Below are positions 636-21,415 of a DNA stretch of 25,526 bases, one piece after another. Within the stretch, counting starts at the first letter, position 1. The number at the start of each line of letters is the position of its first letter. Source of the stretch: Actinomycetota bacterium (GTDB lineage: Bacteria > Actinomycetota > Thermoleophilia > Gaiellales > Gaiellaceae); assembly GCA_013696185.1 (NCBI GenBank), contig JACCZA010000045.1, forward strand, positions 1 to 25,526, written 5' to 3'. The position numbers and the translations under genes were made by a program. The notes below the pieces were generated by a model. That model made no database searches. It had not been told where the DNA came from and saw only the letters and a program-made list of their open reading frames with translations.

Positions 636-1568
636 CTACGCGAACACGCCGAGCGAGCGGAACTTCGCCCGGCGGGTGCGGCGAAGCTCCTCGCCGGGGA
701 TGCCGTCGAGGTCCTCCAGCGCCTCCCGCAGCGACGCGCCGAGCAGGCGCGCCGCCTCCTCGTGGTCGAGGTGAGCCCCTCCCGCCGGCTCGGGCACGAT
801 GCCGTCGATCACGCCGAGCTCGAGGCAGTGGGCAGCGTCGGGCTTGAACGCCGCTGCCGCCTTCTTCGCCTCGGAGGCGTCGCGCCAGAGGATGGCCGCA
901 CAGCCCTCGGGCGTGATCACCGAGTAGATCGCGTGCTCCTGCATCAGCACCCGGTCCGAGAGCGCGAGCGCGATCGCTCCCCCCGAGCCGCCCTCGCCGA
1001 TCACGCAGGCGACCGTCGGCACGGTGAGTCGGGCCATCGTCGCCTGGGAGCGCGCGATCGAGCCGCCCTGGCCGTGCTGCTCGGCCGCGACGCCCGGATA
1101 GGCGCCCGGGGTGTCGACGAGCGAGACGAGCGGAAAGCCCTGCCGCTCGGCGAGCTCCATCGCCCGCATCGCCTTGCGGTAGCCCTCGGGGAAGGCCATG
1201 CCGAAGTTGCGCCGCGTGCGCTCCTTGATGTCGCGCCCCTTCTGCTGGCCGACGAGCACGATCGTGCGACCGTCGAGACGACCCAGGCCGGCGACGATCG
1301 CCGCGTCGTCGGCGCGGGTGCGATCGCCGTGGAGCTCGAAGAAGTCGTCCAGCAGACGGCCGACGTAGTCGAGCGTGTAGGGGCGATCCTGGTGTCGGGC
1401 CAGCTCGACCGAGCGCCAGATCTCCTCGTCGGTGGGCTCGGCGGCCAGCAGGTCGAGCTGGCGCTGGAGCCGCTCGAGCTCGCCGGAGAGCCCGGTCCGA
1501 CCGAGCAGGCGGGTGGCGCGCAGCTTGCCCAGGCGCTCGCGCAGCCTGAGCTCGGCCTCACTCGCCAC
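636..1568 (-). CDS. accA: Acetyl-CoA carboxylase carboxyltransferase alpha subunit
   Basis: Motifs ARHQDRPYTLDY, NFGMAFPEGYRKAMR, LVDTPGAYPG, GEGGSGGA and YSVITPEGCAAILWRD. Overlaps the accD stop. Confidence 0.96.
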   Translation of the reverse strand: MASEAELRLRERLGKLRATRLLGRTGLSGELERLQRQLDLLAAEPTDEEIWRSVELARHQDRPYTLDYVGRLLDDFFELHGDRTRADDAAIVAGLGRLDGRTIVLVGQQKGRDIKERTRRNFGMAFPEGYRKAMRAMELAERQGFPLVSLVDTPGAYPGVAAEQHGQGGSIARSQATMARLTVPTVACVIGEGGSGGAIALALSDRVLMQEHAIYSVITPEGCAAILWRDASEAKKAAAAFKPDAAHCLELGVIDGIVPEPAGGAHLDHEEAARLLGASLREALEDLDGIPGEELRRTRRAKFRSLGVFA

Positions 1569-2403
1569 GGTCGAAGAGCCTCAGCAGGCGGGCCAGAGTC
1601 GAGCGGAGCTCCGGCCGGGGCACGATCGCATCGACGTGACCGTAGCGGAGGTTGGACTCGGCCAGGCCGAAGTCGTCCGGGAGCTTCTCGCGCGTCGTCT
1701 GCTGCACGACGCGCGGGCCCGCGAAGGACATGAGCGCGCCCGGCTCGGCGAGCAGGACGTCGCCGAGGCTCGCGAAGCTCGCAAGCAGGCCGCCGGTGGT
1801 CGGATGGCCGAGCACGGTGACGAGAGGGACGCGCGCGTCGCGCAGGTCCTCGGCGGCGCAGACGGTCTTCGGCATCTGCATCAGCGCGAGGATGCCCTCC
1901 TGCATGCGCGCCCCGCCCGACGCCGCGACGGCGATCAGCGGCACGCGGCGCTCGGCTGCGCTGTCGCAGGCCCGGGAGAACTTCTCCCCCACGACGCTGC
2001 CCATCGAGCCGCCCATGAAGGCGAAGTCCATCACCGCCAGCTCGCAGCCGTGGCCGTCGAGCGTCGCCTCGCCGATCACCATCGCCTCGCCGAGCCCCGT
2101 CGCGAGCTCCGCCTCCGCGAGCCGCTCCGTGTAGGGGCGAAGGTCGAAGAAGTCGAGCGGATCCTCGGAGCGCAGATCGGCGGCCTGCTCGACGAAGCTC
2201 CCCTCGTCGGCGAGTTGCGCGATGCGCGCGCGGGCGCGCATGGGGAAGTGGTGGCCGCAGTGCCGGCAGACCCAGAGCGAGGCGTCGAGCTCGTCGTCGC
2301 GGTAGTGCGAGGCGCAGCTCGGGCAGGTGTTCGGGTTTCGCTTCCCCCCCTCGGGGGGTGGGAGGTGCTTGTGCTCGACGGAGACGTCGATCCGGCTCGC
2401 CAT
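1558..2403 (-). CDS. accD: Acetyl-CoA carboxylase carboxyltransferase beta subunit
   Basis: N-terminal zinc ribbon CPSC-x15-CRHCGHHF, plus MDFAFMGGSMGSVVGEK, ASGGARMQEGILALMQM, PTTGG and FAGPRVVQQT. Confidence 0.96.
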   Translation of the reverse strand: MASRIDVSVEHKHLPPPEGGKRNPNTCPSCASHYRDDELDASLWVCRHCGHHFPMRARARIAQLADEGSFVEQAADLRSEDPLDFFDLRPYTERLAEAELATGLGEAMVIGEATLDGHGCELAVMDFAFMGGSMGSVVGEKFSRACDSAAERRVPLIAVAASGGARMQEGILALMQMPKTVCAAEDLRDARVPLVTVLGHPTTGGLLASFASLGDVLLAEPGALMSFAGPRVVQQTTREKLPDDFGLAESNLRYGHVDAIVPRPELRSTLARLLRLFDRGE

Positions 2404-2413
2404 TGAGCGCCTG

Positions 2414-2419
2414 AGTCTA
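2414..2419 (-). promoter_or_regulatory. Putative -10 hexamer TAGACT of an internal accDA promoter (near-leaderless)
   Basis: TAGACT on the minus strand ends 10 nt before the accD ATG. It fits the actinobacterial TANNNT consensus; no clear -35. Confidence 0.4.
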
Positions 2420-2452
2420 GTGCTCCTCCATGCCCGCCCGAGCCCCAGGGAC

Positions 2453-3229
2453 CTACAGACCGAGCGCCCGCGTCAGGCGGACGAGCGGCTCGACGTTGCG
2501 CGGGTCGGCCGTCAGGCCCGAGAGGCCCGCGCCGATCACCGTCGCGCTCGCGCAGACCTCGCGCAGGACGTCCTCGGCCTCCACGAGCGAGAGGCCGGCA
2601 GGCTCGGGCATGAACGGCGTGATCTCGCCCGGGTCGAGCACGTCGCCGTCGAGGGCGACGTAGACGCAGCTCGTGTCGGCGAGGGCGCGGTCGACCGCCC
2701 CTTGCCCGGTGTGGAGCCCGCTCGCGGCCACGAACTCCTCCTCCGCCGGGTCGAGAGCTCTGGCTCCGACGAGCGCGACGTCGTCGGCCAGCACGACCTG
2801 GGCGTCGATCAGCATCCGCAGGGGCATGCCCCACTTGTTGCCGGAGGGAGACGTCTCGGGCGTATTCAGGTCGCCGTGGGCGTCGAGCCAGACGAGCGCG
2901 ACCCGGTCCCTCCCCGACGCGAGGGCAGTCACGGCGCCGACGTGGGCGCAGCAGCAGCCGCCGAGCACGAGCGGCCGGTCCGGCAGCTCGCTCGCGAGCG
3001 CGGCGCTCTGCTCGGGCAGGGAGTCCTCCGCGACGACTCCCGTCTCCGGCCAGGGCAGGTCGAGCCACGCCGCCGCGGCCATGGCCTCCCCATCCTTCCC
3101 CCAGGCCCGCGGCACGCGCACGAGCCCCGCGGCGAACTCGTGGCCGCAGGCGTGGCACTCGTACTCCGGACCGAGCGCGACCGCCGTCAGCGTCCGGCAG
3201 AAGGGGCATCGGGCACGCAGGCGGCTCAC
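2453..3229 (-). CDS. Arginase/ureohydrolase-family protein with N-terminal Cys4 zinc ribbon and atypical active site (258 aa)
   Basis: GTG start at 3229, in frame with track ORF 2453..3400. It carries RCPFC-x13-CHACGHEF, LVLGGCCCAH, WLDAHGDLNTPETSPSGNKWGMP and YVALDGDVLDP. The fold assignment is strong; the substrate is unknown. Confidence 0.85.
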   Translation of the reverse strand: MSRLRARCPFCRTLTAVALGPEYECHACGHEFAAGLVRVPRAWGKDGEAMAAAAWLDLPWPETGVVAEDSLPEQSAALASELPDRPLVLGGCCCAHVGAVTALASGRDRVALVWLDAHGDLNTPETSPSGNKWGMPLRMLIDAQVVLADDVALVGARALDPAEEEFVAASGLHTGQGAVDRALADTSCVYVALDGDVLDPGEITPFMPEPAGLSLVEAEDVLREVCASATVIGAGLSGLTADPRNVEPLVRLTRALGL

Positions 3230-3314
3230 AGGGGCTTCTCCCACCGGTCGTTCCGCCGCGCCGTGGTCATCCCGACGCGCTCGTACAGACGGACGCCGAC
3301 AGCGTGACGGACCC
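3226..3314 (-). pseudogene. C-terminal relic of a GNAT-family acetyltransferase
   Basis: The spacer between the HAD stop and the arginase-like start translates as ..HAVGVRLYERVGMTTARRNDRWEKPL*. This matches the GNAT C-terminal 'A..LYE..G' motif, and its TGA overlaps the next GTG (GTGA). The frame is closed upstream by a stop at 3397-3399. Confidence 0.6.
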
Positions 3315-3977
3315 TCAAGCCGGCACCAGCTCGTCGAGCGTCTCGGGCAGAGCCTCGATGTCAGGCAGCTCGCGCGCCGGCCGGGGGTCGGCGGCCTCAC
3401 CCAGCCGGTTGACCCAGACCGACGTGAGCCCGAGCTCCGACGCAGGAACGACGTCGTGGAACAGACTCGCCGCGACGTGCACGTGGCGGCCCCGCTCCGC
3501 GGCCGTCAGCTCGAAGAAGCGCTCCCAGTGCCCGTGCGCAGGCTTGTAGGAATGGACGTCCCCGGCGGCGACCGTGACGTCGAAGGGCACGCCGAGCGCC
3601 AGCTGCGACGCGGCGAGCAGCTCGCGGTCGCAGTTCGAGAGCACGCCGAGGCTCCACCCCCGCCGGCGCAGCTCGGCGAGCGCCTCGGGCACCTCGGGGA
3701 AGGGCGGCCACTCGGGCAGGGAGCGCGCGAGCATGGCCGACTCGCCCTCCGGGAGGCCGTACCCGGACTCCGCTGCGAGCCGCTCCAGCGTGAGCCCGAG
3801 CACGACCGCGTAGGGCCGGTACGCCTCTGCCTGCACCCCCGGCTCGAGCTCGTGGTAGCGCTCGAGCAGCCGCGGCGCATGCTCGACGCCGAACAGCCGC
3901 TCGAGCACGGCGCCGATGCCCGCATTCCAGTCGATCAACGTCCCGTAGCAGTCGAATGTCGCCCAGCGCCCGGCCAC
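3315..3977 (-). CDS. HAD-superfamily hydrolase, haloacid dehalogenase type II-like (220 aa)
   Basis: 3' part of track ORF 3315..5054 with probable GTG at 3977. HAD motifs WATFDCYGTLIDW (I), LSNCD (II), SYKP (III) and HVAASLFHDVVPA (IV). Confidence 0.9.
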   Translation of the reverse strand: MAGRWATFDCYGTLIDWNAGIGAVLERLFGVEHAPRLLERYHELEPGVQAEAYRPYAVVLGLTLERLAAESGYGLPEGESAMLARSLPEWPPFPEVPEALAELRRRGWSLGVLSNCDRELLAASQLALGVPFDVTVAAGDVHSYKPAHGHWERFFELTAAERGRHVHVAASLFHDVVPASELGLTSVWVNRLGEAADPRPARELPDIEALPETLDELVPA

Positions 3978-3991
3978 GTCTGCCGCCTGGA

Positions 3992-5254
3992 TCAGTCGTC
4001 GAGCCCGCGGATCACGATGCAGGCGTTGTGCCCGCCGAAGCCGAACGAGTTCGACACGCCGACCCGCACCTCGGCCTCGCGCGCCTCGTTCGGGACGTAG
4101 TCGAGATCGCAGGCAGGGTCGGCCTCGTCGTGGTTGATCGTGGGCGGCAGGATGCCGCGGTCGATCGCGAGGGTCGTGAAGATCGCCTCGATCGCGCCCG
4201 CGGCGCCGAGGCAGTGCCCGGTCGCGCCCTTCGTCGAGGAGACGGGAACGCGCGCCGCGTTCTCCTGCCCGAGCGCGATCTTGATCACCCGTGTCTCGCT
4301 CGCGTCGCCGAGCGGGGTCGAGGTGCCGTGGGCGTTGACGTAGTCGATCTCGGACGGATCGATGCCTGCGTCGGAGAACGCCATCGTCATCGCCCGGGCG
4401 GGGTTCAGGCCGGTCGGGTCGGGCTCGGTGATGTGCGTCGCGTCGGAGGAGAGCCCGTAGCCGGCCAGCTCCGCGTAGATGCGCGCGCCTCGGGCTCGGG
4501 CATGCTCGAGCTCCTCGAGCACGAGGATGGCAGCCCCCTCGCCCATCACGAAGCCGTCGCGGGCGGCGTCGAACGGTCGGCTGGCGCCCTCCGGATCGTC
4601 GTTTCGACGTGACAGCGCCCGCATCGAGCCGAAACCCGCGATCCCGACCCGCGTCACGGGCGCCTCGGTTCCACCGGCGAGCATCACGTCCGCGCGGCCG
4701 AGCCGGATCGCGTCTGCGCTCTCGCCGATCGCCATGTTGGAGGCGGCGCAGGCGGTGCACTGGGAAGTCAGCGGCCCGCGCGTGCCGAGCTCCATTGAGA
4801 CCCACGCGGCGCCCATGTTCGGGATGATCGCGGGGATCGAGAAGGGGTTGACCCGGTCGGGGCCGCGGTCGATCAGCGTGTGGTAGCAGTCCTGGAAGGA
4901 CTTCAGGCCTCCGATCCCGGTCGCCACCGAGACGCCCACGCGGTCGGGCGCCGCGGCCACGTCGAGGCCCGAGTCCTGCTCGGCCTGGCGCGCGGCGGCG
5001 AGGACCATCTGCGAGAAGCGGTCCATGCGCCTCGCCTGCTTGCGCTCGATCCACGCTGCCGGATCGAAGTCCTTCAGCTCGCAGGCGAAGGTGACGGGAT
5101 ACTCGGTCGCGTCGAACGCCGTGATCGGAGCGGCCGAGGCCCGACCCGCGATCAGGCTCTCCCAGGTCGTCTCGACATCGTTGCCGAGCGGCGTCACGGC
5201 ACCGAGCCCGGTGATCACGACGCGCCGGCGGCCGGCTCCGTTCGTACTGCTCAT
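3992..5254 (-). CDS. fabF: 3-oxoacyl-ACP synthase II (KAS II)
   Basis: RRVVITGLGAVTPLG; catalytic Cys in CTACAAS; HGTSTPLGD; GHCLGAAG; SNSFGFGGHN. Confidence 0.96.
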   Translation of the reverse strand: MSSTNGAGRRRVVITGLGAVTPLGNDVETTWESLIAGRASAAPITAFDATEYPVTFACELKDFDPAAWIERKQARRMDRFSQMVLAAARQAEQDSGLDVAAAPDRVGVSVATGIGGLKSFQDCYHTLIDRGPDRVNPFSIPAIIPNMGAAWVSMELGTRGPLTSQCTACAASNMAIGESADAIRLGRADVMLAGGTEAPVTRVGIAGFGSMRALSRRNDDPEGASRPFDAARDGFVMGEGAAILVLEELEHARARGARIYAELAGYGLSSDATHITEPDPTGLNPARAMTMAFSDAGIDPSEIDYVNAHGTSTPLGDASETRVIKIALGQENAARVPVSSTKGATGHCLGAAGAIEAIFTTLAIDRGILPPTINHDEADPACDLDYVPNEAREAEVRVGVSNSFGFGGHNACIVIRGLDD

Positions 5255-5265
5255 CGGCCGAGAAC

Positions 5266-5988
5266 CTACATACCGAGACCGCCGTCGACGAGCAGCACCT
5301 CGCCCGTCACGTACGACGCCTCGTCGGAGCAGAGGAAGCGCACCGCGCCCGCGACGTCCTCCGGGCGCCCGAGGCGGCCGAGCGGCGTGCTCGCGAGCAT
5401 CGCCCCTCGCAGCTCCTCCGGTAGGTCGTCGGTCAGCCGCGTGGCGACGTAGCCCGGGGCGACGACGTTGGCGCGCACGCCGCGGTTCCCGAGCTCGCGG
5501 GCGAGCGCCTTCGTGAAGCCGATGATCCCCGCCTTCGAGGCCGAGTAGTTGGTCTGCCCGGGGTTCCCGTGCAGCCCGACGATGCTGGAGACGTTGACGA
5601 TCGCGCCGGCGCGGCGCTTCATCATTCCCCGCGCGGCAGCACGGCAGGTGTGGAAGGTGCCGCCGAGGTTGGTCTCGAGGACGACCCGCCAGTCCTCGTC
5701 GGACATGCGCGCCAGGAGGCCGTCCCGCGTCAGCCCCGCGTTGTTCACGAGGACGTCGAGGTCGCCCGCCTCCTGCACGAGCCGTCGCGCCTGCTCGGGG
5801 TCGGCGACATCGGCCTGCGCCGCCCGGCCGCCGATCTCCTCGGCGACCGCCGTCGCCTCCTCGGCGCCCGAGCGGTAGCCGACGACGACGCTCGCGCCCG
5901 CACGGGCCAGCTCGAACGCGATCGCGCGACCGATGCCCCGCGAGCCACCGGTGACGAGCGCCGTCTTGCCAGCCAGGGAGCAGAACAC
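5266..5988 (-). CDS. fabG: 3-oxoacyl-ACP reductase
   Basis: TGGSRGIG, LVNNAGLTRDGLLARM, YSASKAG and VAPGYVAT; position inside the fab cluster. Confidence 0.94.
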   Translation of the reverse strand: MFCSLAGKTALVTGGSRGIGRAIAFELARAGASVVVGYRSGAEEATAVAEEIGGRAAQADVADPEQARRLVQEAGDLDVLVNNAGLTRDGLLARMSDEDWRVVLETNLGGTFHTCRAAARGMMKRRAGAIVNVSSIVGLHGNPGQTNYSASKAGIIGFTKALARELGNRGVRANVVAPGYVATRLTDDLPEELRGAMLASTPLGRLGRPEDVAGAVRFLCSDEASYVTGEVLLVDGGLGM

Positions 5989-6007
5989 GCCGCCGACCGG
6001 AGGCGAG

Positions 6008-6934
6008 TCAGGCAGCGGAGAGCGTCTCCTCGAGCTTCTGCAGCGACTCCAGGTTGTTCACGGGCACCGCCTTGACGCTCTTGTCGATGCGCCGGACCAG
6101 GCCCGACAGGACGTTCCCCGGGCCCACCTCGACGAAGGTGCGGACACCCTGTCGCACCAGCTCGCTCGTCGCCTGCGTGAACCTGACGGGCGCCGTCAGC
6201 TGCTCGACGAGGAGCCCGGCGATCCGGTGGGCGGGCTCGATGCTCGCGGTCACCGTCGAGACGAACGGGGCGACCGGCTCGGACACGCGCACCCGGTCGA
6301 GCGCCGGCCGCAGCCGGTCGGCGGCACGGGCGACGAGCGGGCTGTGGAAGGCGCCCGAGACCTTGAGCTTGATCGCGCGCCGCGCGCCCTGGGCCTCGGC
6401 CTCGCTGCAGCACTCCTCGACTGCCTCGTCCTCGCCCGAGACGACCACCTGACCGGGGCAGTTGTAGTTCGCCGGCCAGACGCCGATGATGCGGCGGCAG
6501 AGCGACTCGACCACCTCGTCGGGAAGACCGAGGATCGCGGCCATCGAGCCCGGGTGCTCCCGGGCCGCCGCGGCCATCGCGAGCCCGCGCTCGCGCACGA
6601 GCCCGATCGCGGGGCCCGTCTCGATCGCCGAGACCGCCGCGAGGGCGGCGAACTCCCCGACCGAGTGGCCGACCACGTAGTCGGGTCGCAGCCCGCGCGT
6701 CTCGAGCGCCGCGAGGATCGCGAGGCTCGTCGCGACGAGCGCAGGCTGCTGCACCTCGGTCTCGACGAGCTCCTCGAGGGGCGCCTCGAAGCAGAGGCGG
6801 CGCAGGTCGAGACCGGACGCCTCGCTGCCCCGGTCGAACACCTCCATCGCCTCGGGAATCGCCTCGGCGACGTCTCGACCCATGCCCGCCTCGAGCGAGC
6901 CCTGGCCCGGAAAACAGAACGCGACCTTACCCAC
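6008..6934 (-). CDS. fabD: Malonyl-CoA:ACP transacylase
   Basis: AFCFPGQGS, QQPAL, GHSVGE (catalytic Ser), ANYNCPGQVVVSG, VSGAFHSPL and EVGPGNVL. Confidence 0.96.
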   Translation of the reverse strand: MGKVAFCFPGQGSLEAGMGRDVAEAIPEAMEVFDRGSEASGLDLRRLCFEAPLEELVETEVQQPALVATSLAILAALETRGLRPDYVVGHSVGEFAALAAVSAIETGPAIGLVRERGLAMAAAAREHPGSMAAILGLPDEVVESLCRRIIGVWPANYNCPGQVVVSGEDEAVEECCSEAEAQGARRAIKLKVSGAFHSPLVARAADRLRPALDRVRVSEPVAPFVSTVTASIEPAHRIAGLLVEQLTAPVRFTQATSELVRQGVRTFVEVGPGNVLSGLVRRIDKSVKAVPVNNLESLQKLEETLSAA

Positions 6935-7979
6935 CGACCGTCTCCTCTCGACGCCTGCTCTGCCCGTTGCCGTTCGTCTGCCCGGTCCACTCCATCACCG
7001 CGGAGCCCCAGGTGAGCCCGGCACCCATGCCCGTCATCAGCACCGTCTGACCGGGGTGCAACATCCCGTCGGCGGCGGCATCGGCGAGCGCGAGCGGGAT
7101 CGAGCCCGACGACGTGTTGCCGAAGCGATCGACGTTGACGACGACCCGCTCGCGAGCGATGCCGAGCTTGCGCACCGCGTAGTCGATGATCCGGACGTTT
7201 GCCTGGTGCGGCACGTAGAGGTCGATGTCGGCGACCGACAGCCCGCACTCGGCGAGCACGCGCTCGGCGGACGACACGAGCACGCGGGTGGCGAACTTGA
7301 ACACCTCGGGCCCGTTCATCTTCACGAGGTGCTGCCCCCCCGCCACCGACTCGGCGGTCGCGGGCATGCGCGACCCTCCGGCCGGCAGGTTCAGGTGGAC
7401 CCCGCCCGCGCCGTCGGCGCCGAGCTCGAAGCCGAGAAAGCCGCCCGCGTCCACCGCCTCGAGCACGACGGCGCCCGCGCCGTCGCCGAAGAGGACGGCG
7501 GTGCTGCGGTCGCTCCAGTCGACGATCTTCGAGAGGACGTCGCCCCCGACGACGAGCGCCCGCGACGAGAGGCCGCCGGCGATCATCCCGTAGGCCTGCG
7601 CGAGCGCGTACATGAAGCCCGTGCAGCCCGCCGAGAGGTCGTAGGCCGCCGCGTCGGGCATGCCGAGCCGGTCGGCCAGGACAGCGCCCGAGGAGGGGAA
7701 GACCATGTCCGGTGTGACCGTGGCGACGATCAGCAGGTCGATCGAGGAGGGCTCGCCGCCTGCCTGGGCGAGCGCCTGGCGGGCGGCGGGCAGGGCGAGG
7801 TCCGACAGCGCCTGCTCGGGCAGGGCGATGCGGCGCTCGCGGATGCCGGTGCGCTCGCGGATCCACTCGTCGGAGGTGTCGAGCGTCCGCGACAGGTCGT
7901 CGTTCGTGACTACGCGCTCGGGCGTGCAGCAGCCGAGCCCCGTGATCGAGACCCGCGCGCCGTTCGTCGCGCCGATCAC
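6927..7979 (-). CDS. fabH: 3-oxoacyl-ACP synthase III (350 aa)
   Basis: GTG at 7979 overlaps the fabZ stop (GTGA). Motifs DTSDEWIRERTGIRERR, DLSAGCTGF, LFGDGAGA, PHQAN and GNTSSGSIP (Cys-His-Asn triad). Confidence 0.96.
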   Translation of the reverse strand: MIGATNGARVSITGLGCCTPERVVTNDDLSRTLDTSDEWIRERTGIRERRIALPEQALSDLALPAARQALAQAGGEPSSIDLLIVATVTPDMVFPSSGAVLADRLGMPDAAAYDLSAGCTGFMYALAQAYGMIAGGLSSRALVVGGDVLSKIVDWSDRSTAVLFGDGAGAVVLEAVDAGGFLGFELGADGAGGVHLNLPAGGSRMPATAESVAGGQHLVKMNGPEVFKFATRVLVSSAERVLAECGLSVADIDLYVPHQANVRIIDYAVRKLGIARERVVVNVDRFGNTSSGSIPLALADAAADGMLHPGQTVLMTGMGAGLTWGSAVMEWTGQTNGNGQSRRREETVGG

Positions 7980-8419
7980 GCGCCCACCGCGAAGGTGAGC
8001 GTGCCGCGGGCGGCCAGCTCGGCGCCGACCGTCGCGCGTGCCTTGCCACGGCCGATCGGCCCACGCACCTGCTCGAGCTCGCACAGCAGCGTGAGCTCGT
8101 CGCCCGGCCTGACGACGCGCTTGAAGCGCACGCCGTCGATCCCGCCGAAGAGCGCGAGCTTGCCGCGATTGTCCTCCTGCGACAGAACGGCGACCGCGCC
8201 CGCCTGCGCGAGCGCCTCGACGATGAGCACGCCCGGCATGATCGGGTTGCCGGGGAAGTGACCCCGGCACCAGTCCTCCCGGACGGTCGAGCGGGCGACC
8301 ACGCGGCTGCCCGGCACGAGCTCGAGCACCTCGTCCAGGAAGAGGAAGGGCGCGCGGTGCGGCAGGACCGCCTCGATCCCCTCCTGTCCGAGCGGCGCCT
8401 CGAGCGCCCGGGCCCTCAC
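7976..8419 (-). CDS. fabZ: 3-hydroxyacyl-ACP dehydratase (147 aa)
   Basis: LPHRAPFLFLD, GHFPGNPIMPGVLIVEALAQ and VRFKRVVRPGD. Start taken at GTG 8419; the exact start is uncertain. Confidence 0.94.
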   Translation of the reverse strand: MRARALEAPLGQEGIEAVLPHRAPFLFLDEVLELVPGSRVVARSTVREDWCRGHFPGNPIMPGVLIVEALAQAGAVAVLSQEDNRGKLALFGGIDGVRFKRVVRPGDELTLLCELEQVRGPIGRGKARATVGAELAARGTLTFAVGA

Positions 8420-8451
8420 CGGCCGGCGCGGGGTTCGCGGGGGCGAAGCAT
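8416..8451 (-). CDS. Putative leaderless small ORF MLRPREPRAGR* coupled to fabZ
   Basis: The ATG at 8451 lies 6 nt after the TACAAT hexamer. Its TGA (8418-8416) overlaps the fabZ GTG (8419-8417). Confidence 0.4.
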   Translation of the reverse strand: MLRPREPRAGR

Positions 8452-8457
8452 CCGGCG

Positions 8458-8463
8458 ATTGTA
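8458..8463 (-). promoter_or_regulatory. Putative -10 hexamer TACAAT of the fab operon promoter
   Basis: ATTGTA on + is TACAAT on -, a rare AT-rich hexamer in the amidase-fabZ spacer. No good -35. Confidence 0.55.
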
Positions 8464-8535
8464 GTGGGGAGGTCGCACGGGCGGGCCGGCGCCGACGTCT
8501 CGCGTACCGCCCGCCACGGGTCGCCGAGTGCGTTC

Positions 8536-10713
8536 CTAAGGGAGACCGAGCGGGAGGCTCGCGTTGCCCGCGGCATCCGTCGCCACGACCCGGAGCCGCC
8601 TCGGCCTGGCACCCACGCTCACTGTGAAGACGCCCGGCGCCGTTCGCGTCACGGCCTGCCGGGCGCCGTCCGCGAGCACCACCACCTCGGCGGGCTCGCT
8701 CAGGCGCAGGCGCAGCGGGAAGACCGCCACGAGCGCGAGCTGCGGGGCCTTCGTGTCCGAGGTGAATTGCACGCGTCCGGAGACCGTCCCGATCGTGTCC
8801 GTGACCGCGAGCTCGGCCTCGTACGCGCCGTCGAGCAGCCTGCCGATCCGTTTGCTGCCGTCCCACTCGAGGGTCTGCGGGCCTGCCGCGAGCGGCCCGC
8901 TGAACGGCGTGGCGAGCCAGCCTCCCCCGGCGAGGATACGGAGCGTCACCTGCGCCGGGGCGGCGAGGGTGAACGTGAGGCGCAACGTGTCCTCGCGCCC
9001 GTCGCCGTTCGGGGAGAAGACCGGGCGCTCGGCAGCGAGCGCCGAGAGGGTCCGGTTGACCAGGATCGGCACCGTCGCGCTCGCCGTTCCCGCCGTTCCG
9101 CTCGCCGACAGGACGATCGTGTAGAGGCCGTCGGGCACGGCGTCCGCCGAGAAGGCGAAGCGGTGGGTGCCCGCGAGGCGGGGCTCGGCGAAGAGCGTCG
9201 CGAGGACGTTGCCGGCCGGATCGACCAGCGTCACGGTCACCGTGGCAGGGGCGCCGAGCGCGTAGTGGATCTGCGCCGAATCGTCCACGCCGTCGCCGTT
9301 CGGGGTCACCGCCGTGGGCTCCGCGCGCGCATCGCTCAGCAGGACCGCTCCCGTGGGAGGAGGCGGGGGTGGCGGGGGCGGAGGAGGAGGCGGTGGGGGC
9401 GGAGGAGGAGAGCCGTCCTTACGGCCGAGTGTGCCGGTCGCGGCGAGGACGGTCGAGGGCCCCGAGCCGGCCGTGATCGCGTAGGAGTAGGCGCCCGCGG
9501 CGGCACGCTGCGAGCTCCAGCTCCAGAGCACTGCGGAGCCGGTGCCCGCCCCGAGGGCGACCTGCCTGCCACGGGCGTCCGTCACGACGACCCGCCAGGG
9601 GAGCGGCGTAGACAGCCGCGCCGTGAAGCGGATCGTCTTGCCGAGCGTGCCGTCGACCCTCGGTGCGTACAGCTTCGGCAGCCCCGTCCCGGCGACGTCG
9701 CGGGCGAGGCCGTCGAGAGCGCGATAGAGGACGGCGCCGGGACAGTCGGTGAAGCCCGTATCGCGGTGACCCGAGACCGGGCGCAGGAACACCGGCGCGC
9801 CCCGGCTGAAGCGCGGGTTGCCACCGGAGATCCAGGAGAACGGCTCGAGCGGGTCGACGTGAGCCACGTCGAGGCGCCACGCGAGCGTTTGCACGATCGC
9901 CGCACGCGCCGCCGGCGTGATTCCCTCCGAGCCATAGCTCCCGATCACCGCGATGCCGGTCGAGCCGGTGTTGAAGCCCTGGGCGTGCGCCCCGATCACG
10001 TTCCGGTCGGCGCCGCCATAGCGCCCCTCGAAGACCTGACCGTAGCGGTCGACGAGGAAGTTGTAGCCGATGTCGTTCCAGCCGTTTCCACGCACGTGGT
10101 AGAGCTGGATCGCCCGCACGATCGCCGCCGACTCGGCGCGCGAGTAGCTGCTCGCGCCCGCTGTGTGGTGGATGACGGCGAACCGCACGGCCCCGGCGAA
10201 GCGAGGCGGCTCCCTCTTGATCAGCTCGTTCGCGCCCCAGGAGAGTCGCGGCACGATCGCCGGCGAGGCGGCGAGCGCCGGCGTGCGAGCGTCCCCGGAC
10301 ACAGGGAGCGCTGCTGCTGTGGGCGGGCTGCGGACGAAGTGTGCACGGAGGCGGCGAACCCGGCCGCTCAGGCGGTACTGGATGGCGTCGGACGGCCCCG
10401 TCCAGTAGGGATTGCCGAGCCGCCAGCCCGCGCGGCTTCCCTCGCCCGTGCCCGCGTCGGGCAGGTCCTCGTACTCGGGCGCCGCGGGGCGCCACGGGCT
10501 CCAGCGGCCCGTGAGCGCACGGGTGCGGAAGCGCACGCTGCCCGAGCCCTGCCAGTGCAGGCCGACGAGGTCGAAGCGCGGGGTCGCCGCGGTCGCGTGC
10601 AGCGCTCGAGTGGCGCCGAGAGGCACCTCGCGGGTGACGATGCTCGCGGGCTCGGCCCGCGCCGGGCCGGCGTCGAGCGCGAGGAGCAGGAGGATTGCAG
10701 CGAGGAGCTTCAC
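8536..10713 (-). CDS. Secreted N-acetylmuramoyl-L-alanine amidase (Amidase_2/PGRP type) with poly-Pro linker and FlgD/Ig-like C-terminal repeats
   Basis: Signal-peptide-like MKLLAAILLLLALDAGPARA. Catalytic motifs VIHHTAG, GWNDIGYNFLVD, GAHAQGFN and GHRD..TDCPG (His/His/Cys zinc ligands). Two (T/S)PNGDG..D Ig-like modules follow the Pro18 linker. Confidence 0.88.
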   Translation of the reverse strand: MKLLAAILLLLALDAGPARAEPASIVTREVPLGATRALHATAATPRFDLVGLHWQGSGSVRFRTRALTGRWSPWRPAAPEYEDLPDAGTGEGSRAGWRLGNPYWTGPSDAIQYRLSGRVRRLRAHFVRSPPTAAALPVSGDARTPALAASPAIVPRLSWGANELIKREPPRFAGAVRFAVIHHTAGASSYSRAESAAIVRAIQLYHVRGNGWNDIGYNFLVDRYGQVFEGRYGGADRNVIGAHAQGFNTGSTGIAVIGSYGSEGITPAARAAIVQTLAWRLDVAHVDPLEPFSWISGGNPRFSRGAPVFLRPVSGHRDTGFTDCPGAVLYRALDGLARDVAGTGLPKLYAPRVDGTLGKTIRFTARLSTPLPWRVVVTDARGRQVALGAGTGSAVLWSWSSQRAAAGAYSYAITAGSGPSTVLAATGTLGRKDGSPPPPPPPPPPPPPPPPPPTGAVLLSDARAEPTAVTPNGDGVDDSAQIHYALGAPATVTVTLVDPAGNVLATLFAEPRLAGTHRFAFSADAVPDGLYTIVLSASGTAGTASATVPILVNRTLSALAAERPVFSPNGDGREDTLRLTFTLAAPAQVTLRILAGGGWLATPFSGPLAAGPQTLEWDGSKRIGRLLDGAYEAELAVTDTIGTVSGRVQFTSDTKAPQLALVAVFPLRLRLSEPAEVVVLADGARQAVTRTAPGVFTVSVGARPRRLRVVATDAAGNASLPLGLP
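9355..9408 (-). repeat. Run of 18 consecutive proline codons; (NGG)18 on the + strand
   Basis: Counted directly: ggg agg agg cgg ggg tgg cgg ggg cgg agg agg agg cgg tgg ggg cgg agg agg. Confidence 0.95.

Positions 10714-11738: not shown

Positions 11739-11742
<4 letters not shown>
10795..11742 (+). CDS. galT: GalT-family (HxHxQ) nucleotidyltransferase; sugar and nucleotide specificity uncertain (315 aa)
   Basis: 3' part of track ORF 8464..11742. Motifs [62 protein letters not shown] and [13 protein letters not shown]. The symbol is family-level only. Its stop overlaps the gyrA stop (CTAG). Confidence 0.85.
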
Positions 11743-14339
<2,597 letters not shown>

Positions 14340-14362
14340 GGTCGGAGCGGGGGTCTACGGCC

Positions 14363-16786
<2,424 letters not shown>

Positions 16787-16788
16787 TC

Positions 16789-16797
16789 AGTCTATCA
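16789..16797 (-). promoter_or_regulatory. Extended -10 promoter element TGATAGACT for gyrB-gyrA
   Basis: TGn-TAGACT overlaps the dciA stop codon. A start site about 7 nt downstream would fall just 5' of the hairpin. Confidence 0.65.
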
Positions 16798-17259
16798 AAT
16801 CGGGCGGCTGGAAACCGACCTGGCGAGGCTGGCGGCGGCGGCTCGGGCGACCAGACGCCGCAGCTCGTCGTTCTCGATCGGAGCAGCCAGCGACTCGGCC
16901 TGGACCCACTCGGCCGCACCCGGGCGAGGCGCGACGCGTCCCTGTGGGGCAGAGCCTACGTCACCGGCGGGTTGGGGCAGGTGCCCGACCGCGAAGCGCA
17001 GGGCGGACGGTGCGTTCGCGGCGAGCCGCGCGCGCAGGCGCTCGAGGAGCTGCGGCGCGAGCTGCGTCAGCTCGAAGGCCCACGCCGAGGAGCTGACCGC
17101 GACGTGCAGGGTTCCGTTGCCCGCGATCCGCGCGGGCCACGCGTTCGCGGCGATCGGCGCCCCCACGAGCTCCGGCCAGACCGCCACGAGCTCGCCCATG
17201 CCGGCCTGCGGGCCGAAGCGGGAGAGCTCCCGGCGGACCTCGTGCTCGAGCGACTCCAC
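16795..17259 (-). CDS. dciA: DciA (DUF721) replicative helicase loader (154 aa)
   Basis: GTG at 17259 overlaps the recF TAG. Sequence LVAVWPELVGAPIAANAWPARIAGNGTLHVAVSSSAWAFEL; classical recF-gyrB position. Confidence 0.85.
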   Translation of the reverse strand: MESLEHEVRRELSRFGPQAGMGELVAVWPELVGAPIAANAWPARIAGNGTLHVAVSSSAWAFELTQLAPQLLERLRARLAANAPSALRFAVGHLPQPAGDVGSAPQGRVAPRPGAAEWVQAESLAAPIENDELRRLVARAAAASLARSVSSRPI

Positions 17260-18326
17260 TACGCGCGCTCCTGCACGAGGCCCGGCGTGACGTCGAGCAC
17301 CTGGTCGGCCTCGACCGGCAGAGCGGAGGCGCTCGTGGCCGTGATCAGCGTCTGGCCCGTACCGCGCAGGCGCTCGGCGAGCGAGCGGCGGCGGTCGGGG
17401 TCGAGCTCCGAGAGGACGTCGTCCAGGAGCAGGAGCGGTGGCTCCCCCGTGCGCTCGGCGATCAGCCCGGCCTCCGCGAGCAGCAGGGACAGCACCGCGA
17501 GGCGCTGCTCGCCCTGGGAGCCGAACAGTCGGAGCTCGCGCGTCCCTGCGGTGACCGACACGTCGTCCAGGTGCGGTCCGAGTCCGGTCGTGCCCCGCTC
17601 GAGGTCGCGCTCGAGCCGCGCCGCCAGCGCCTCCTCCGTGGGCGGGCTGCCGTCGTAGGCCAGTCGTGCGGCGGCGAGGCCGAGTTGAGAGGCTCGCTCC
17701 CCGAACACCGGGGAGAGCAGCTCGACCGCGTCCCGGCGAGCCAGCACGAGCTCGCGCCCGAGATCCACGACACGCTCGGTCCACGGCGCGAGCGCCTCAC
17801 GGGTGGAGAGGCCGAGCGAGACCCGCCTGAGGGCGGCGTTGCGCTGCGTGAGGGCTGCGCCGTAGCCGGGCGACAGCTCCGCCCGAGCCGGGAACAACCG
17901 CGCGAGCGTGCGATCGAAGTAGGCCCGCCGGACGAGCGGCCCGCCCTTCACGACGGCGAGCCGGTCCGGCGTGAAGACCAGGGTCGCGAGCTCCCGCCGC
18001 AGCTCCTCGACGGCTTGCAGGGGCGCGCCGTTCAGCCTGCTTCGCCTGCCCTCGCCGCGCCGGAGCACCACCTCCACGTCGACGGGCACGCCGCTTGCGC
18101 GGCGGCCGTGCAGGGCGATCCGGCAGCCCTCCGTGCCGAAGCGCACGAGCTGCGACTCGACCCGGGTGCGCGGCGAGAAGCCCTGCGTGCCCACGTGCAG
18201 CGACTCCAGCAGGTTCGTCTTGCCCGCGCCGTTCGGCCCGACGACGAGCACGATGCCCGGGCGGAGCGCCAGGTCGAGCCGGGCGTAGGAGCGGAAGTCT
18301 CGGAGCGAGACCCGGGAGACGATCAG
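17259..18326 (-). CDS. recF: DNA replication/repair protein RecF; start uncertain (CTG 18326 or GTG 18362)
   Basis: VSLRDFRSY, Walker A GPNGAGKTNLLE, GSQGEQR and LLLLDDVLSELD; position downstream of dnaN. Confidence 0.93.
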   Translation of the reverse strand: MIVSRVSLRDFRSYARLDLALRPGIVLVVGPNGAGKTNLLESLHVGTQGFSPRTRVESQLVRFGTEGCRIALHGRRASGVPVDVEVVLRRGEGRRSRLNGAPLQAVEELRRELATLVFTPDRLAVVKGGPLVRRAYFDRTLARLFPARAELSPGYGAALTQRNAALRRVSLGLSTREALAPWTERVVDLGRELVLARRDAVELLSPVFGERASQLGLAAARLAYDGSPPTEEALAARLERDLERGTTGLGPHLDDVSVTAGTRELRLFGSQGEQRLAVLSLLLAEAGLIAERTGEPPLLLLDDVLSELDPDRRRSLAERLRGTGQTLITATSASALPVEADQVLDVTPGLVQERA

Positions 18327-19456
18327 CCGGCCAGCCGGATCGGCATGATCAGGTATGACCACGAGGCGTCGCCGCTCGCCTGGATCACCGCGGGCCGCAG
18401 CGGACTGATCAGCTTGAGCACGAGCTCGTCGCCGCTGACCGAGTCGACGCCGTCGCGCAGGAACTCCGCGTTGAAGCCGATCTCGAGCGGCTCGCCCGAG
18501 AAGGCGACGGGCAGCGACTCGCGCGACTCGCCGACGTCCTGGGTCTGCGCGGAGACGGTCAGCTCGCCCTCGGCGAAGCGCAGCCGCAGCGGCGAGTTCC
18601 GCTGCACCATCACCGCCGTCCTGCGCACCGCGTCGAGGAACTCCCCCCGCGGCAGCGCCACCTCGTGCTCGAAGGCGTCCGGCAGGAGCTGCTGGACGTT
18701 CGGGAACTGCCCGTCGATCCGCCGCGTGGTCAGCGTGACCCCCTCCGTGCGGAACACGACCTGGTTCTCGAGCACGCCGAGCTCCAGGGTCTCGCCCCCG
18801 CCGGCGCTGCGCCCGAGCTCGACGAGCGCTCGCGCCGGGACGATCGCCTCGAGCTCCGGGCCTGCGCCCGTGAGCGGCGTCTCCTTCACGGACAGCCGGT
18901 AGGAGTCGGTGGCCGCCATCACGAGCTTGCCGCTCTCGAAGCGGACGAGGATGCCCGTCAGGACGGGACGCGACTCGTCGCGCGAGGCCGAGCGTGCGAC
19001 ACGGGACACGGTCTCGAGGAGCGCCCGCCGCTCGACGGGGAACGTCTGCAGCGCCTCGAGCTCCGGCAGGCGCGGAAAGTCCTCGGCGCTGTAGGTGTTG
19101 AGCCTATAGGACGCCGGGCCGCACTCGATCCGCAGGCTCCCCTCGTCGGCCCGGTGCTCCAGCGAGACCTCCGCTGCCGGCAGGAGGCGCACGAGGTCCA
19201 CGAGCAGCCGTCCGGGCACCACGACAGCGCCCTCCGCCTCGACCTCCGCCGGCAGCGAGGCGCGCAGCGACAGCTCCATGTCGGTTGCCGCGAGCTCGAG
19301 GCGGCCGTCCTCGGCTCGGAGCAGCACTCCGAGGAGCACCTGAACCGCGCTTCGGGTCGAGACGGCGCGCGCCACGGTCGTCAGGCGCCCGACGAGCTCG
19401 TCCCGGCTGCACGTGAGCTTGAGGCCCGAGCCGACGGCGATGTCTGTTTCCATCAT
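18323..19456 (-). CDS. dnaN: DNA polymerase III beta sliding clamp
   Basis: ATDMELS, AEDFPRLP, DESRPVLTG, ATDSYRL, RRIDGQFPNV, IGFNAEFL and YLIMPIRL. Confidence 0.97.
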   Translation of the reverse strand: MMETDIAVGSGLKLTCSRDELVGRLTTVARAVSTRSAVQVLLGVLLRAEDGRLELAATDMELSLRASLPAEVEAEGAVVVPGRLLVDLVRLLPAAEVSLEHRADEGSLRIECGPASYRLNTYSAEDFPRLPELEALQTFPVERRALLETVSRVARSASRDESRPVLTGILVRFESGKLVMAATDSYRLSVKETPLTGAGPELEAIVPARALVELGRSAGGGETLELGVLENQVVFRTEGVTLTTRRIDGQFPNVQQLLPDAFEHEVALPRGEFLDAVRRTAVMVQRNSPLRLRFAEGELTVSAQTQDVGESRESLPVAFSGEPLEIGFNAEFLRDGVDSVSGDELVLKLISPLRPAVIQASGDASWSYLIMPIRLAG

Positions 19457-19614
19457 GGTTTAGAGAAACTCCTCGTCGTAGTCATAGGGAGTGTGGACGA
19501 CGGGGAAGACGGCAGAGACCCCTGCTCACGGGCAGAACCGCCCTGTGCACGCCGGCTGGGGAGAAGGACGCTCCGCCCACAACCCCGAGTCGCGTGAACG
19601 AGACTCTCCACCGA
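19457..19614. other. Predicted oriC unwinding sub-region (dnaA-dnaN spacer) with DnaA-trio-like repeats and DnaA boxes
   Basis: TCG TCG TAG TCA TAG - GGAG - TGTGGACGA (19473-19500) next to an AT-richer patch. Further degenerate boxes TGTGCACGC (19544) and TGGGGAGAA (19557). Confidence 0.75.
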
Positions 19615-20958: not shown

Positions 20959-20998
20959 GTGCTCTCGTTCAGCTCCTCGCCGCTTCGGGGAATCGCCG

Positions 20999-21007
20999 AG
21001 CATAGCA
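20999..21007 (-). promoter_or_regulatory. Extended -10 element TGCTATGCT for dnaA
   Basis: TGn-TATGCT about 40 nt upstream of the dnaA start; SD-like AGGAG in the leader. Confidence 0.5.
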
Positions 21008-21086
21008 GCGTCGAAGCGGCCCGACACGGGTGCCGAAGCCTGGACAAAAGCCCGCAGTTTGCAGGATCTTCGAGTTCGCGGGCGAT

Positions 21087-21184
21087 CTCTCCACAAGTGT
21101 GGAGAACGCCGGGGAAAACAGCGCCTCGCGACTGCCCGCGTCCCCGCCCGGGCGGCTCCGGGCCGACGGACCGACTGTGGACAA
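21087..21184. promoter_or_regulatory. DnaA boxes in the dnaA-rpmH divergent promoter region
   Basis: Inverted pair CTCTCCACA (21087-21095) and TGTGGAGAA (21098-21106). Also a perfect actinobacterial box TGTGGACAA (21176-21184) and a weak CGGGGAAAA (21110). Confidence 0.75.
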
Positions 21185-21204
21185 GCCGGCCCGAAGGACG
21201 TCGC

Positions 21205-21210
21205 TATACT
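21205..21210 (+). promoter_or_regulatory. Putative -10 hexamer TATACT for the rpmH-rnpA-yidD-yidC-jag-rsmG operon
   Basis: TATACT ends about 50 nt upstream of the rpmH ATG. Confidence 0.55.
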
Positions 21211-21259
21211 CGCCGGGCGGAGCGGGCTCTCCCGGCGCCCCCTCGCGCCGTGCCTCCCG

Positions 21260-21394
21260 ATGAAGCGCACCTACCAGCCCAACGTCCGCCGCCGGAAGCG
21301 TCGCCACGGCTTCCGTGCCCGCATGGCGACGAAGGCCGGACGGGTGATCCTCAAGCGCCGCCGCGCCAAGGGCCGCAAGCGGCTCTCGGCCTGA
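21260..21394 (+). CDS. rpmH: 50S ribosomal protein L34 (44 aa)
   Basis: [44 protein letters not shown]. Confidence 0.98.
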
Positions 21395-21415
21395 GTAGCG
21401 CCGGAGGAAGCCCAC

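What the first reader, a model, noticed from the sequence alone, without database searches (positions are those of the whole stretch)
2453..3229. Zinc-ribbon arginase-like protein with a rewired active site: candidate new ureohydrolase-fold enzyme
Seen: the core DAHGDLNTPETSPSGN..GMP is arginase-like and the DAHxD and DxD (LDGD) metal ligands are intact. However, GGDH(S) has become GGCCCAH, the catalytic His of SGNxHG (His141 in rat arginase numbering) is Trp (SGNKWGMP), and the C-terminal strand that normally carries the guanidinium-binding Glu reads GAGLSGL with no acidic residue. The usual N-terminus is replaced by a CxxC-x13-CxxC ribbon, giving seven clustered Cys. Known: this fold also covers agmatinase, guanidinase, formiminoglutamase and the related class I/II deacetylases. 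Inference: it does not hydrolyse arginine; it may act on another amide or acyl substrate, use a different metal or Fe-S/redox centre, or be a regulatory pseudoenzyme.
Basis: partly seen in the sequence, partly recalled or inferred. Interest (0 to 1): 0.75.

Follow-up and report, generated by a model that had tools for sequence, protein, structure and literature searches.

The report
Divergent Cys-ligand arginase paralogue of Gaiellaceae
This gene encodes a conserved but uncharacterised extra copy of arginase, found only in the soil actinobacterial family Gaiellaceae; it keeps the metal site and the amino-acid-binding loops but has a rebuilt catalytic pocket and an added zinc ribbon, so it probably acts on something other than plain arginine.

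Summary
Window 2453-3229 (-) encodes a 258-aa arginase-fold protein ("ArgL") with these features:
- a Cys4 ribbon;
- GGCCCAH in place of GGDHS;
- Trp in place of the catalytic His141;
- Gly in place of Glu277.

These are not assembly errors. They are invariant or nearly so in the 37 full-length orthologues aligned here, taken from a pool of thousands of 258-aa proteins named "Gaiellaceae". ArgL occurs in 41 of 52 genomes of that family and in 0 of 249 genomes of other families of the class. It sits beside canonical arginase-family paralogues.

New findings:
- The fold is complete (Z 28 to arginases). The ribbon is an N-terminal addition to a shortened N-terminal part.
- The loops that bind the alpha-carboxylate and alpha-amino groups of arginine are unchanged.
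- A Cys at the His101 position has precedents in active enzymes: Zymomonas arginase 6KSY and DcsB.
- Loss of His141 has a precedent in DcsB.
- The gene belongs to a HAD-GNAT-ArgL cassette inserted between fabF and accD. Each of the three parts has been lost independently, so ArgL is accessory and not an acetyl-CoA carboxylase subunit.

Best reading (about 0.45): an active metallohydrolase that acts on a modified or neutral arginine/ornithine analogue. The substrate is unknown.

First-stage readers of this scan noted the same protein in four other genomes.

The parts
2453..3229 (-). argL: 258-aa arginase-fold protein with an N-terminal Cys4 ribbon (GTG start at 3229, stop at 2453-2455)
3146..3208 (-). 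Cys4 zinc-ribbon/rubredoxin-like knuckles (C8, C11, C25, H26, C28). All are invariant. Model confidence is low here.
2942..2962 (-). GGCCCAH (residues 90-96). C93 occupies the position of metal-A ligand His101. C94 and H96 are invariant. C92 is Asp in one orthologue (GGDCC).
2870..2884 (-). DAHGD (D116, H118, D120): binuclear-metal ligands, invariant
2822..2866 (-). Loop A (N122 ... S129-G-N131-x-W133-G-M-P136). The alpha-carboxylate-binding residues are kept. The catalytic His141 is replaced by an invariant Trp.
2741..2767 (-). Loop B (G155-x-R-x-L-D160-P-x-E163): the alpha-amino-binding Asp and Glu are kept
2630..2653 (-). LDGDVLDP (D194, D196): metal ligands, invariant
2600..2611 (-). M207-P-E209-P210. 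It lies where Thermus arginase has Thr-Pro-Val-Pro (alignment). Naming that Thr as Thr246 comes from my own knowledge. Nearly invariant.
2513..2533 (-). GAGLSGL (233-239). G238 lies where arginases and DcsB have the guanidinium-binding Glu277.
3226..3314 (-). Relic of the last ~24 codons of the double-GNAT gene that precedes argL in most relatives. Its stop overlaps the argL GTG start.
   Evidence: compared
3315..3998 (-). HAD-family hydrolase (type II haloacid-dehalogenase-like), a variable member of the same inserted cassette
1558..2403 (-). accD (carboxyltransferase beta, with its own N-terminal zinc ribbon), directly downstream of argL in every locus that carries argL
636..1568 (-). accA (carboxyltransferase alpha)
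3992..5254 (-). fabF, the last gene of the fabH-D-G-F block. In sister families it lies directly next to accD.

Best explanation
ArgL is a functional, metal-dependent hydrolase of the arginase fold that is specific to Gaiellaceae.

Shown:
- The fold is a complete arginase fold.
- All six metal-ligand positions are filled by metal-binding residues, with Cys93 in place of His101.
- Loops A and B, which hold the alpha-carboxylate and alpha-amino groups of L-arginine, are unchanged.
- The distal pocket is rebuilt: His141 to Trp133, the Thr246 position to Met207, and Glu277 to Gly238. Cys94 and His96 next to the ligand are invariant, and Cys92 nearly so.

Inferred:
- A metal-bound hydroxide still attacks the terminal carbon of an L-ornithine-derived side chain.
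- The group it attacks is probably not a plain, positively charged guanidinium. It is more likely an N-omega-substituted or neutral analogue, for example hydroxy- or otherwise modified arginine, canavanine, or citrulline/N-delta-acyl-ornithine types.
- The Cys ligand may shift the metal preference.
- The gene arrived as part of a HAD / double-GNAT / ArgL cassette inserted between fabF and accD. It is co-transcribed with lipid-synthesis genes, is translationally coupled to the GNAT where that gene is present, and is dispensable.
For: - Fold: TM 0.71-0.75 and Z 28 to solved arginases across their whole chains. PF00491 scores 81 bits.
- Conservation: metal ligands, loop A (N122, S129, N131), loop B (D160, E163) and the new residues (C93, C94, H96, W133, M207, E209, G238) are invariant or at least 90% conserved in the alignments. 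The genomes that carry the gene span 19 genera.
- Residue roles: loops A and B, Glu277 and His141 are described in PMC9224512.
- Precedents: Cys92 ligates metal A in the Mn-dependent Zymomonas arginase. DcsB, an N-omega-hydroxy-L-arginine amidinohydrolase, has Cys86 at the same position and Gly at the His141 position.
- Paralogue status: the window's own genome has a full-length canonical PF00491 gene (247 bits). Gaiellaceae genomes usually carry canonical copies of 240-313 bits as well as ArgL at 85-100 bits.
- ArgL scores 64.6 bits against the 227.6-bit arginase equivalog cut-off.
- Context: the order fabD-G-F-[HAD]-[GNAT]-argL-accD-accA holds in 22 loci. The GNAT stop overlaps or abuts the argL start. 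Arginase-like plus GNAT fusions occur in other Actinomycetota.
Against: - There is no biochemical evidence, and the substrate is a guess.
- E209 in the invariant M-P-E-P segment might replace Glu277, which would leave arginine as a possible substrate.
- No NO synthase and no urease alpha subunit were found in the window's own genome, which is 86% complete. A hydroxyarginine source and a urea sink are therefore not evident.
- The gene has been lost from about one fifth of Gaiellaceae genomes, so its role is not central.
- The GNATs fused to arginase-like domains elsewhere are not specifically related to the Gaiellaceae GNAT.
Confidence: 0.45

Rival explanations
1. It is still an ordinary arginase (L-arginine to ornithine plus urea) with unusual residues, like the Zymomonas GGDC arginase.
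For: - zmARG, which has a Cys metal ligand, is an Mn-dependent arginase with Km 6.8 mM and kcat 302 per s.
- Loops A and B are identical in type to those of true arginases.
- On the tree, ArgL groups (94/77) with canonical actinobacterial arginases.
Against: - In the printed alignment zmARG has a His in the region of the His141 position (AHAH). ArgL has lost both His141 and Glu277, and the losses are invariant.
- ArgL scores 64.6 bits against the 227.6-bit rocF equivalog cut-off.
- Its genomes already encode canonical arginase-family copies.
Confidence: 0.15
2. It is a non-catalytic ligand sensor or regulatory subunit. It binds arginine or a related amino acid and modulates a partner, either the co-translated GNAT or acetyl-CoA carboxylase / fatty-acid synthesis.
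For: - The general acid/base and the guanidinium-binding Glu are gone, while the amino-acid-binding loops are kept.
- The gene is translationally coupled to a GNAT.
- Other Actinomycetota fuse an arginase-like domain to a GNAT that weakly resembles Cg3035-type N-acetylglutamate synthase (88 bits, below the cut-off).
- The gene lies in the fab-acc operon.
Against: - All six metal-ligand positions, and Asp120 (the Asp128 equivalent), are strictly conserved. That is unusual for a dead enzyme.
- ArgL persists in genomes that have lost the GNAT, including this window, and the GNAT persists without ArgL.
- In sister families, which lack the gene, fabF lies directly next to accD.
Confidence: 0.2
3. 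The zinc ribbon directs the enzyme to a macromolecule, for example protein-arginine modification or docking on AccD-AccA. Alternatively, the seven Cys form a redox or Fe-S centre with chemistry different from ureohydrolases.
For: - The ribbon is invariant.
- argL lies next to accD, which has a similar CPxC...CxxCGHxF ribbon.
- Peptide arginases exist in this superfamily (title listed).
- The PDB titles for DcsB mention an oxidisable Cys86.
Against: - Retained alpha-carboxylate and alpha-amino binding residues fit a free amino acid, not a peptide.
- The ArgL and AccD ribbons match only weakly (hhalign E 0.0019, probability 14%).
- argL has been lost repeatedly while accDA stays.
- In the aligned arginase motif, only C93 among the three adjacent Cys lies at a ligand position.
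Confidence: 0.1

Closest known systems
Bacterial arginase RocF (Thermus thermophilus 2EF4/2EIV; Bacillus 1CEV, 6NFP)
   Same: Best sequence and structure matches (E 1e-19, profile E 2e-25, Z 28, rmsd about 2 A). The DAHxD and DxDxxDP metal motifs are shared. Loop A (D-L-N-T-P-E-T-S-P-S-G-N) and loop B (R-x-L-D-P-x-E) are nearly identical.
   Different: His101 to Cys93, His141 to Trp133, Glu277 to Gly238, and the Thr246 position to Met207. The N-terminal part is shortened and a Cys4 ribbon is added. ArgL is 258 aa against about 290-300 aa. It falls below the rocF equivalog cut-off.
Zymomonas mobilis dimeric arginase zmARG (PDB 6KSY, GGDCL motif; PMC6988801)
   Same: A Cys at the His101 position is a direct ligand of metal A, and the enzyme is active. 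One ArgL orthologue still reads GGDCC.
   Different: Direct similarity is weak (E 2e-4). zmARG belongs to a separate PQWQGG/GGDC clade. In the printed alignment it has a His in the region of the His141 position. It has no ribbon and no CCC run.
DcsB, N-omega-hydroxy-L-arginine amidinohydrolase of D-cycloserine biosynthesis (PDB 6LUG, 7EUQ, 9IXE)
   Same: Cys86 aligns with the His101 position, and the catalytic His141 is absent (Gly in DcsB, Trp here). DcsB is an arginase-fold enzyme that acts on a modified arginine rather than on arginine (alignment; E 7e-11 to ArgL). The substrate statement comes from the PDB molecule name and my own knowledge of Oda et al. 2020, which is not in the paper library.
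   Different: DcsB keeps the Glu277 equivalent, has N-N-T-C-S rather than G-G-C-C-C, has no ribbon, and lies in an antibiotic gene cluster. No NO synthase was found in this genome.
Uncharacterised arginase-like + GNAT fusion proteins of Actinomycetota (AFDB cluster A0A243QJ27; L020 589-2265)
   Same: Best AlphaFold-cluster match (33% identity, rmsd 2.7 A, ArgL residues 36-256). ArgL is 38% identical to the L020 arginase-like domain. That domain has a GGDC Cys. The fusion echoes the GNAT-argL gene pair.
   Different: The fusion keeps His141 and the Glu. Its GNAT is of the Rv0428c_C / Cg3035-like type and is not specifically related to the Gaiellaceae double GNAT. On the tree it lies in a separate clade (98/94).

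Membership tests
Arginase/ureohydrolase family (Pfam PF00491) | Profile match above the gathering cut-off | tested here: met
   81.1 bits against a cut-off of 22, but only profile positions 82-250 of 280 match
Arginase/ureohydrolase family (Pfam PF00491) | Three-layer alpha/beta arginase fold | tested here: met
   AlphaFold model with pLDDT 80 and pTM 0.82. Foldseek TM 0.71-0.75. VIA Z 28 with 226-228 aligned residues covering whole arginase chains.
Arginase/ureohydrolase family (Pfam PF00491) | DAHxD and DxDxxDP metal-ligand motifs | tested here: met
   D116-A-H118-G-D120 and D194-G-D196-V-L-D-P are invariant
Arginase/ureohydrolase family (Pfam PF00491) | GGDHS motif with His as ligand of metal A | tested here: not met
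   The motif reads GGCCC, with Cys93 at the His position. Cys is a proven ligand at this position in 6KSY.
Bona fide arginase, EC 3.5.3.1 (NCBIfam TIGR01229 rocF) | Equivalog model above the trusted cut-off | tested here: not met
   64.6 bits against 227.6
Bona fide arginase, EC 3.5.3.1 (NCBIfam TIGR01229 rocF) | Catalytic His141 and guanidinium-binding Glu277 | tested here: not met
   Trp133 and Gly238, both conserved. Residue roles are from PMC9224512.
Bona fide arginase, EC 3.5.3.1 (NCBIfam TIGR01229 rocF) | Loop A (Asn130, Ser137) and loop B (Asp183, Glu186), which bind the alpha-carboxylate and alpha-amino groups | tested here: met
   N122, S129, N131, D160 and E163 are conserved
Bona fide arginase, EC 3.5.3.1 (NCBIfam TIGR01229 rocF) | Urea and ornithine formed from L-arginine | not testable with these tools
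   Needs an enzyme assay
DcsB-type N-omega-hydroxy-L-arginine amidinohydrolase | Cys as metal-A ligand and no His141 counterpart | tested here: met
   DcsB Cys86 and Gly align with ArgL C93 and W133 through the L020 and Thermus alignments
DcsB-type N-omega-hydroxy-L-arginine amidinohydrolase | Close sequence kinship, or a source of hydroxyarginine in the cluster or genome | tested here: not met
   E is only 7e-11, weaker than to arginases. No NO synthase (PF02898) was found in the window's own genome, which is 86% complete. A DcsA-type heme protein was not searched for. The neighbours are fab/acc genes.
Acetyl-CoA carboxylase accessory subunit (hypothetical) | Obligate co-occurrence with, or binding to, AccD/AccA | tested here: not met
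   accD-accA persist without argL in 5 Gaiellaceae genomes and in sister families. The binding prediction gave no verdict, so binding itself remains untested.

The most novel reading that the evidence does not exclude
ArgL is a new enzyme activity on the ureohydrolase scaffold. In this reading, a Cys-ligated metal centre (possibly not Mn) with a Trp/Met/Gly pocket hydrolyses a neutral or anionic N-delta/N-omega-substituted ornithine, for example a ureido or acyl group rather than a guanidinium. It would work together with the co-translated double-GNAT, which uses acetyl-CoA, and be expressed with the fatty-acid/ACC operon in one of the most abundant soil actinobacterial families.
Probability: 0.2. 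Interest if true: 0.7.

Novelty: new variant of a known kind. Interest (0 to 1): 0.5.

Why it matters
Gaiellaceae are abundant soil bacteria and few have been cultured. This protein appears in thousands of metagenomic sequences, all annotated simply as "arginase", and that annotation is probably wrong.

It combines four changes around the catalytic centre (Cys ligand, Trp for His141, Gly for Glu277, Met at the Thr246 position) with untouched amino-acid-binding loops. That makes it a natural experiment on how the arginase scaffold changes chemistry or substrate, in the way DcsB does, and a concrete target for enzyme discovery.

The result also shows that Cys-for-His at metal site A recurs in the family. 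It corrects the idea that the gene is tied to acetyl-CoA carboxylase: it is part of an inserted cassette that has been lost repeatedly.

Tried and rejected
1. Complex prediction of ArgL with AccD plus AccA scored 0.00 and gave no verdict. It counts neither for nor against binding.
2. The idea that the ArgL ribbon was copied from the AccD ribbon is not supported. hhalign aligns the two, but with E 0.0019 and probability 14%, which is generic zinc-ribbon similarity.
3. The idea that ArgL belongs to the GGDC/PQWQGG clade (zmARG, the GNAT fusions, family f61) is not supported. The tree puts ArgL plus P0194 in their own clade, which groups weakly with canonical arginases, while the GGDC clade is separate. 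The Cys may therefore be convergent.
4. The GNAT next to ArgL and the GNAT fused to arginase-like domains elsewhere share only the generic GNAT motif.
5. Literature searches for DcsB found nothing in the held library. A search on ureohydrolase plus zinc-ribbon terms returned no paper containing "zinc ribbon". A search for the GGDC motif found only the zmARG paper.
6. Many "fusion" or odd-length representatives from the 50%-identity library turned out to be frame-shifted high-GC reads and were not used.
8. I did not compute dN/dS. At 60-70% protein identity, synonymous sites would be saturated.

Full report
**1. The observation**

The minus-strand ORF from GTG 3229 to the stop at 2453-2455 encodes 258 residues.
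- C8-x2-C11-x13-C25-x2-C28
- GGCCCAH at 90-96
- DAHGD at 116-120
- SGNKWGMP at 129-136
- LDGD at 193-196
- GAGLSGL at 233-239

Pfam PF00491 matches at 81 bits, but only over profile positions 82-250. The arginase, agmatinase and formiminoglutamase equivalog models all fall far below their cut-offs, with rocF at 64.6 against 227.6 bits. HMMER alignments to Thermus and Bacillus arginases put C92-C93-C94 on D-H-S of GGDHS and W133 on the His of SGNxHG.

**2. It is real and conserved**

A search of 5.8 billion proteins returned thousands of hits. The best 120 are almost all exactly 258 aa, 66-98% identical, and are named "arginase family protein [Gaiellaceae bacterium]" where a name exists.

Two alignments of 20 sequences each show the following as invariant or at least 90% conserved:
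- the ribbon Cys and His;
- C93, C94 and H96;
- the five Asp/His metal ligands;
- N122, S129 and N131;
- W133;
- D160 and E163;
- M207-P-E-P;
- G238.

C92 is Asp in one orthologue, which reads GGDCC.

Genome searches found the protein in 41 of 52 genomes of the window's own family and in 0 of 249 genomes from other families of the class at E <= 1e-20. Elsewhere in the phylum the best hit is only 81 bits.

The window's genome is an 86%-complete MAG. It also has a canonical full-length PF00491 gene on another contig. Gaiellaceae genomes generally carry one or more canonical copies (240-313 bits) alongside this divergent one (85-100 bits). ArgL is therefore a neofunctionalised extra paralogue, not decay and not an assembly error.

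**3. Structure**

The AlphaFold model has pLDDT 80 and pTM 0.82, with low confidence in residues 1-40. It matches solved arginases with TM 0.71-0.75 and Z about 28. Some 226-228 residues align at about 2.0 A. Model residues from about 19-22 to 258 cover arginase chains from residue 2 to about 292.

The fold is therefore complete but compact. The N-terminal alpha/beta elements (residues 36-90) are shortened and too diverged for the HMM to detect. The Cys4 ribbon is an addition at the front.

P0194 is a metagenomic homologue that lies immediately upstream of an accD. It has a conventional arginase N-terminus, GGDC, and the same Trp. It is sister to ArgL on the tree (99/92), which suggests the ribbon was acquired later.

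**4. What is kept and what is changed**

Kept:
- All metal-ligand positions are kept, with Cys93 replacing His101.
- The Asp128 equivalent (D120) is kept.
- The two loops that make arginase specific for an alpha-amino acid are kept. Loop A (N122, S129, N131) binds the alpha-carboxylate. Loop B (D160, E163) binds the alpha-amino group. These roles are described in PMC9224512.

Changed, all at the distal, guanidinium-binding and proton-shuttling end:
- His141 to Trp133
- Glu277 to Gly238
- the Thr246 position to Met207
- Cys94 and His96 next to the ligand, both invariant (Cys92 nearly so)

This pattern points to an arginine/ornithine-type amino-acid ligand whose far end is handled differently.

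**5. Precedents**

The Zymomonas arginase 6KSY has GGDCL. Its Cys92 sulfur ligates metal A, and the enzyme is an Mn-dependent arginase with Km 6.8 mM and kcat 302 per s (PMC6988801).

DcsB (6LUG and related entries) is named an N-omega-hydroxy-L-arginine amidinohydrolase. It has Cys86 at the same aligned position and Gly at the His141 position, but it keeps the Glu (alignment). The PDB titles mention an oxidisable Cys86.

Other Actinomycetota carry GGDC proteins with Ala, Ser or Gly at the His141 position. Each single change therefore has a precedent. The combination with loss of Glu277, the CCC run and the ribbon does not.

On a maximum-likelihood tree, ArgL plus P0194 form their own clade. 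It groups weakly (94/77) with canonical actinobacterial arginases. The GGDC clade, which includes the GNAT fusion, is separate (98/94). The Cys may therefore have arisen independently. One row of that tree (L021) comes from the unpublished genome G345. The tallies include the unpublished genomes G345, G595, G412, G701 and G692. No conclusion depends on any of them.

**6. Context**

In 22 loci from different genera the order is fabD-fabG-fabF-[HAD]-[double GNAT]-argL-accD-accA-ligD. argL always lies directly upstream of accD. Where the GNAT is present, its stop overlaps or abuts the argL start, which indicates translational coupling.

HAD, GNAT and ArgL are each missing in some genomes, in all combinations. 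Five Gaiellaceae genomes without ArgL show a clean absence or a short relic at the same place. In two sister families of the same order, fabF lies directly next to accD.

The trio is thus a cassette inserted into an older fabF-accD junction and later eroded piecemeal. In this window the GNAT is reduced to its last ~24 codons (3226-3314), still ending on the argL start.

This argues against an obligate role in acetyl-CoA carboxylase. A complex prediction with AccD plus AccA gave no verdict. The similarity between the ArgL and AccD ribbons is not significant.

Arginase-like plus GNAT fusions elsewhere echo the GNAT-ArgL pairing, but their GNATs are of a different kind.

**7. Interpretation**

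Most likely (about 0.45), ArgL is an active metallohydrolase. It binds an L-arginine/ornithine-type amino acid and hydrolyses a terminal group other than a plain guanidinium. The substrate is unknown.

No NO synthase or urease alpha subunit was found in this incomplete genome, so a DcsB-like hydroxyarginine role has no support from context.

The rivals are a plain arginase (0.15), a non-catalytic arginine sensor or regulator (0.2), and a ribbon-directed or redox function (0.1).

First-stage notes of this scan describe the same protein in four other genomes, and none of them has been followed up. The family has no characterised member. I rate it a new variant of a known kind, of moderate interest.

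Noticed in passing
window 3226-3314 (-): Relic of the C-terminus of a double-GNAT acetyltransferase. It reads ...V-R-L-Y-E-R-V-G-M...R-N-D-R-W-E-K-P-L-stop and matches the GNAT C-termini found upstream of argL in relatives. Its TGA overlaps the argL GTG start.
   Followed up: yes
window 636-8866 (-); loci L038-L067: Gaiellaceae and sister families have an E. coli-type split accD-accA placed directly after fabH-fabD-fabG-fabF. No acpP lies between fabG and fabF (12-bp gap in the window). ligD follows accA in most Gaiellaceae loci.
   Followed up: partly
L059 2011-2214 (G099): A short argL relic (residues ~178-245, 44% identity) lies between HAD and accD in a Gaiellaceae genome that otherwise lacks argL. 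It is direct evidence of gene decay at this position.
   Followed up: partly
L063 111-893 (metagenome contig, protein P0194): A syntenic ArgL relative upstream of accD. It has no zinc ribbon, a canonical arginase N-terminus, GGDC, and D-A-N-A-D (the metal-B His replaced by Asn). It may be an ancestral or recombinant form.
   Followed up: partly
L020 589-2265 (-) (G562): A 558-aa fusion of a GGDC arginase-like domain with a C-terminal GNAT of the Rv0428c_C / Cg3035-like (N-acetylglutamate-synthase-like) type. It may couple arginine sensing to acetylation.
   Followed up: partly
L022, L025, L026, L032 (family f61 genomes): A clade of actinobacterial GGDC arginase-like proteins with Gly, Ala or Ser at the His141 position. 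In those two features they resemble DcsB. They are uncharacterised.
   Followed up: no
window 11739-19456 and 19594-22020: The window lies in the replication-origin region. It carries gyrA, gyrB, a DciA-domain protein, dnaN and a YidD-containing ORF on the other strand.
   Followed up: no
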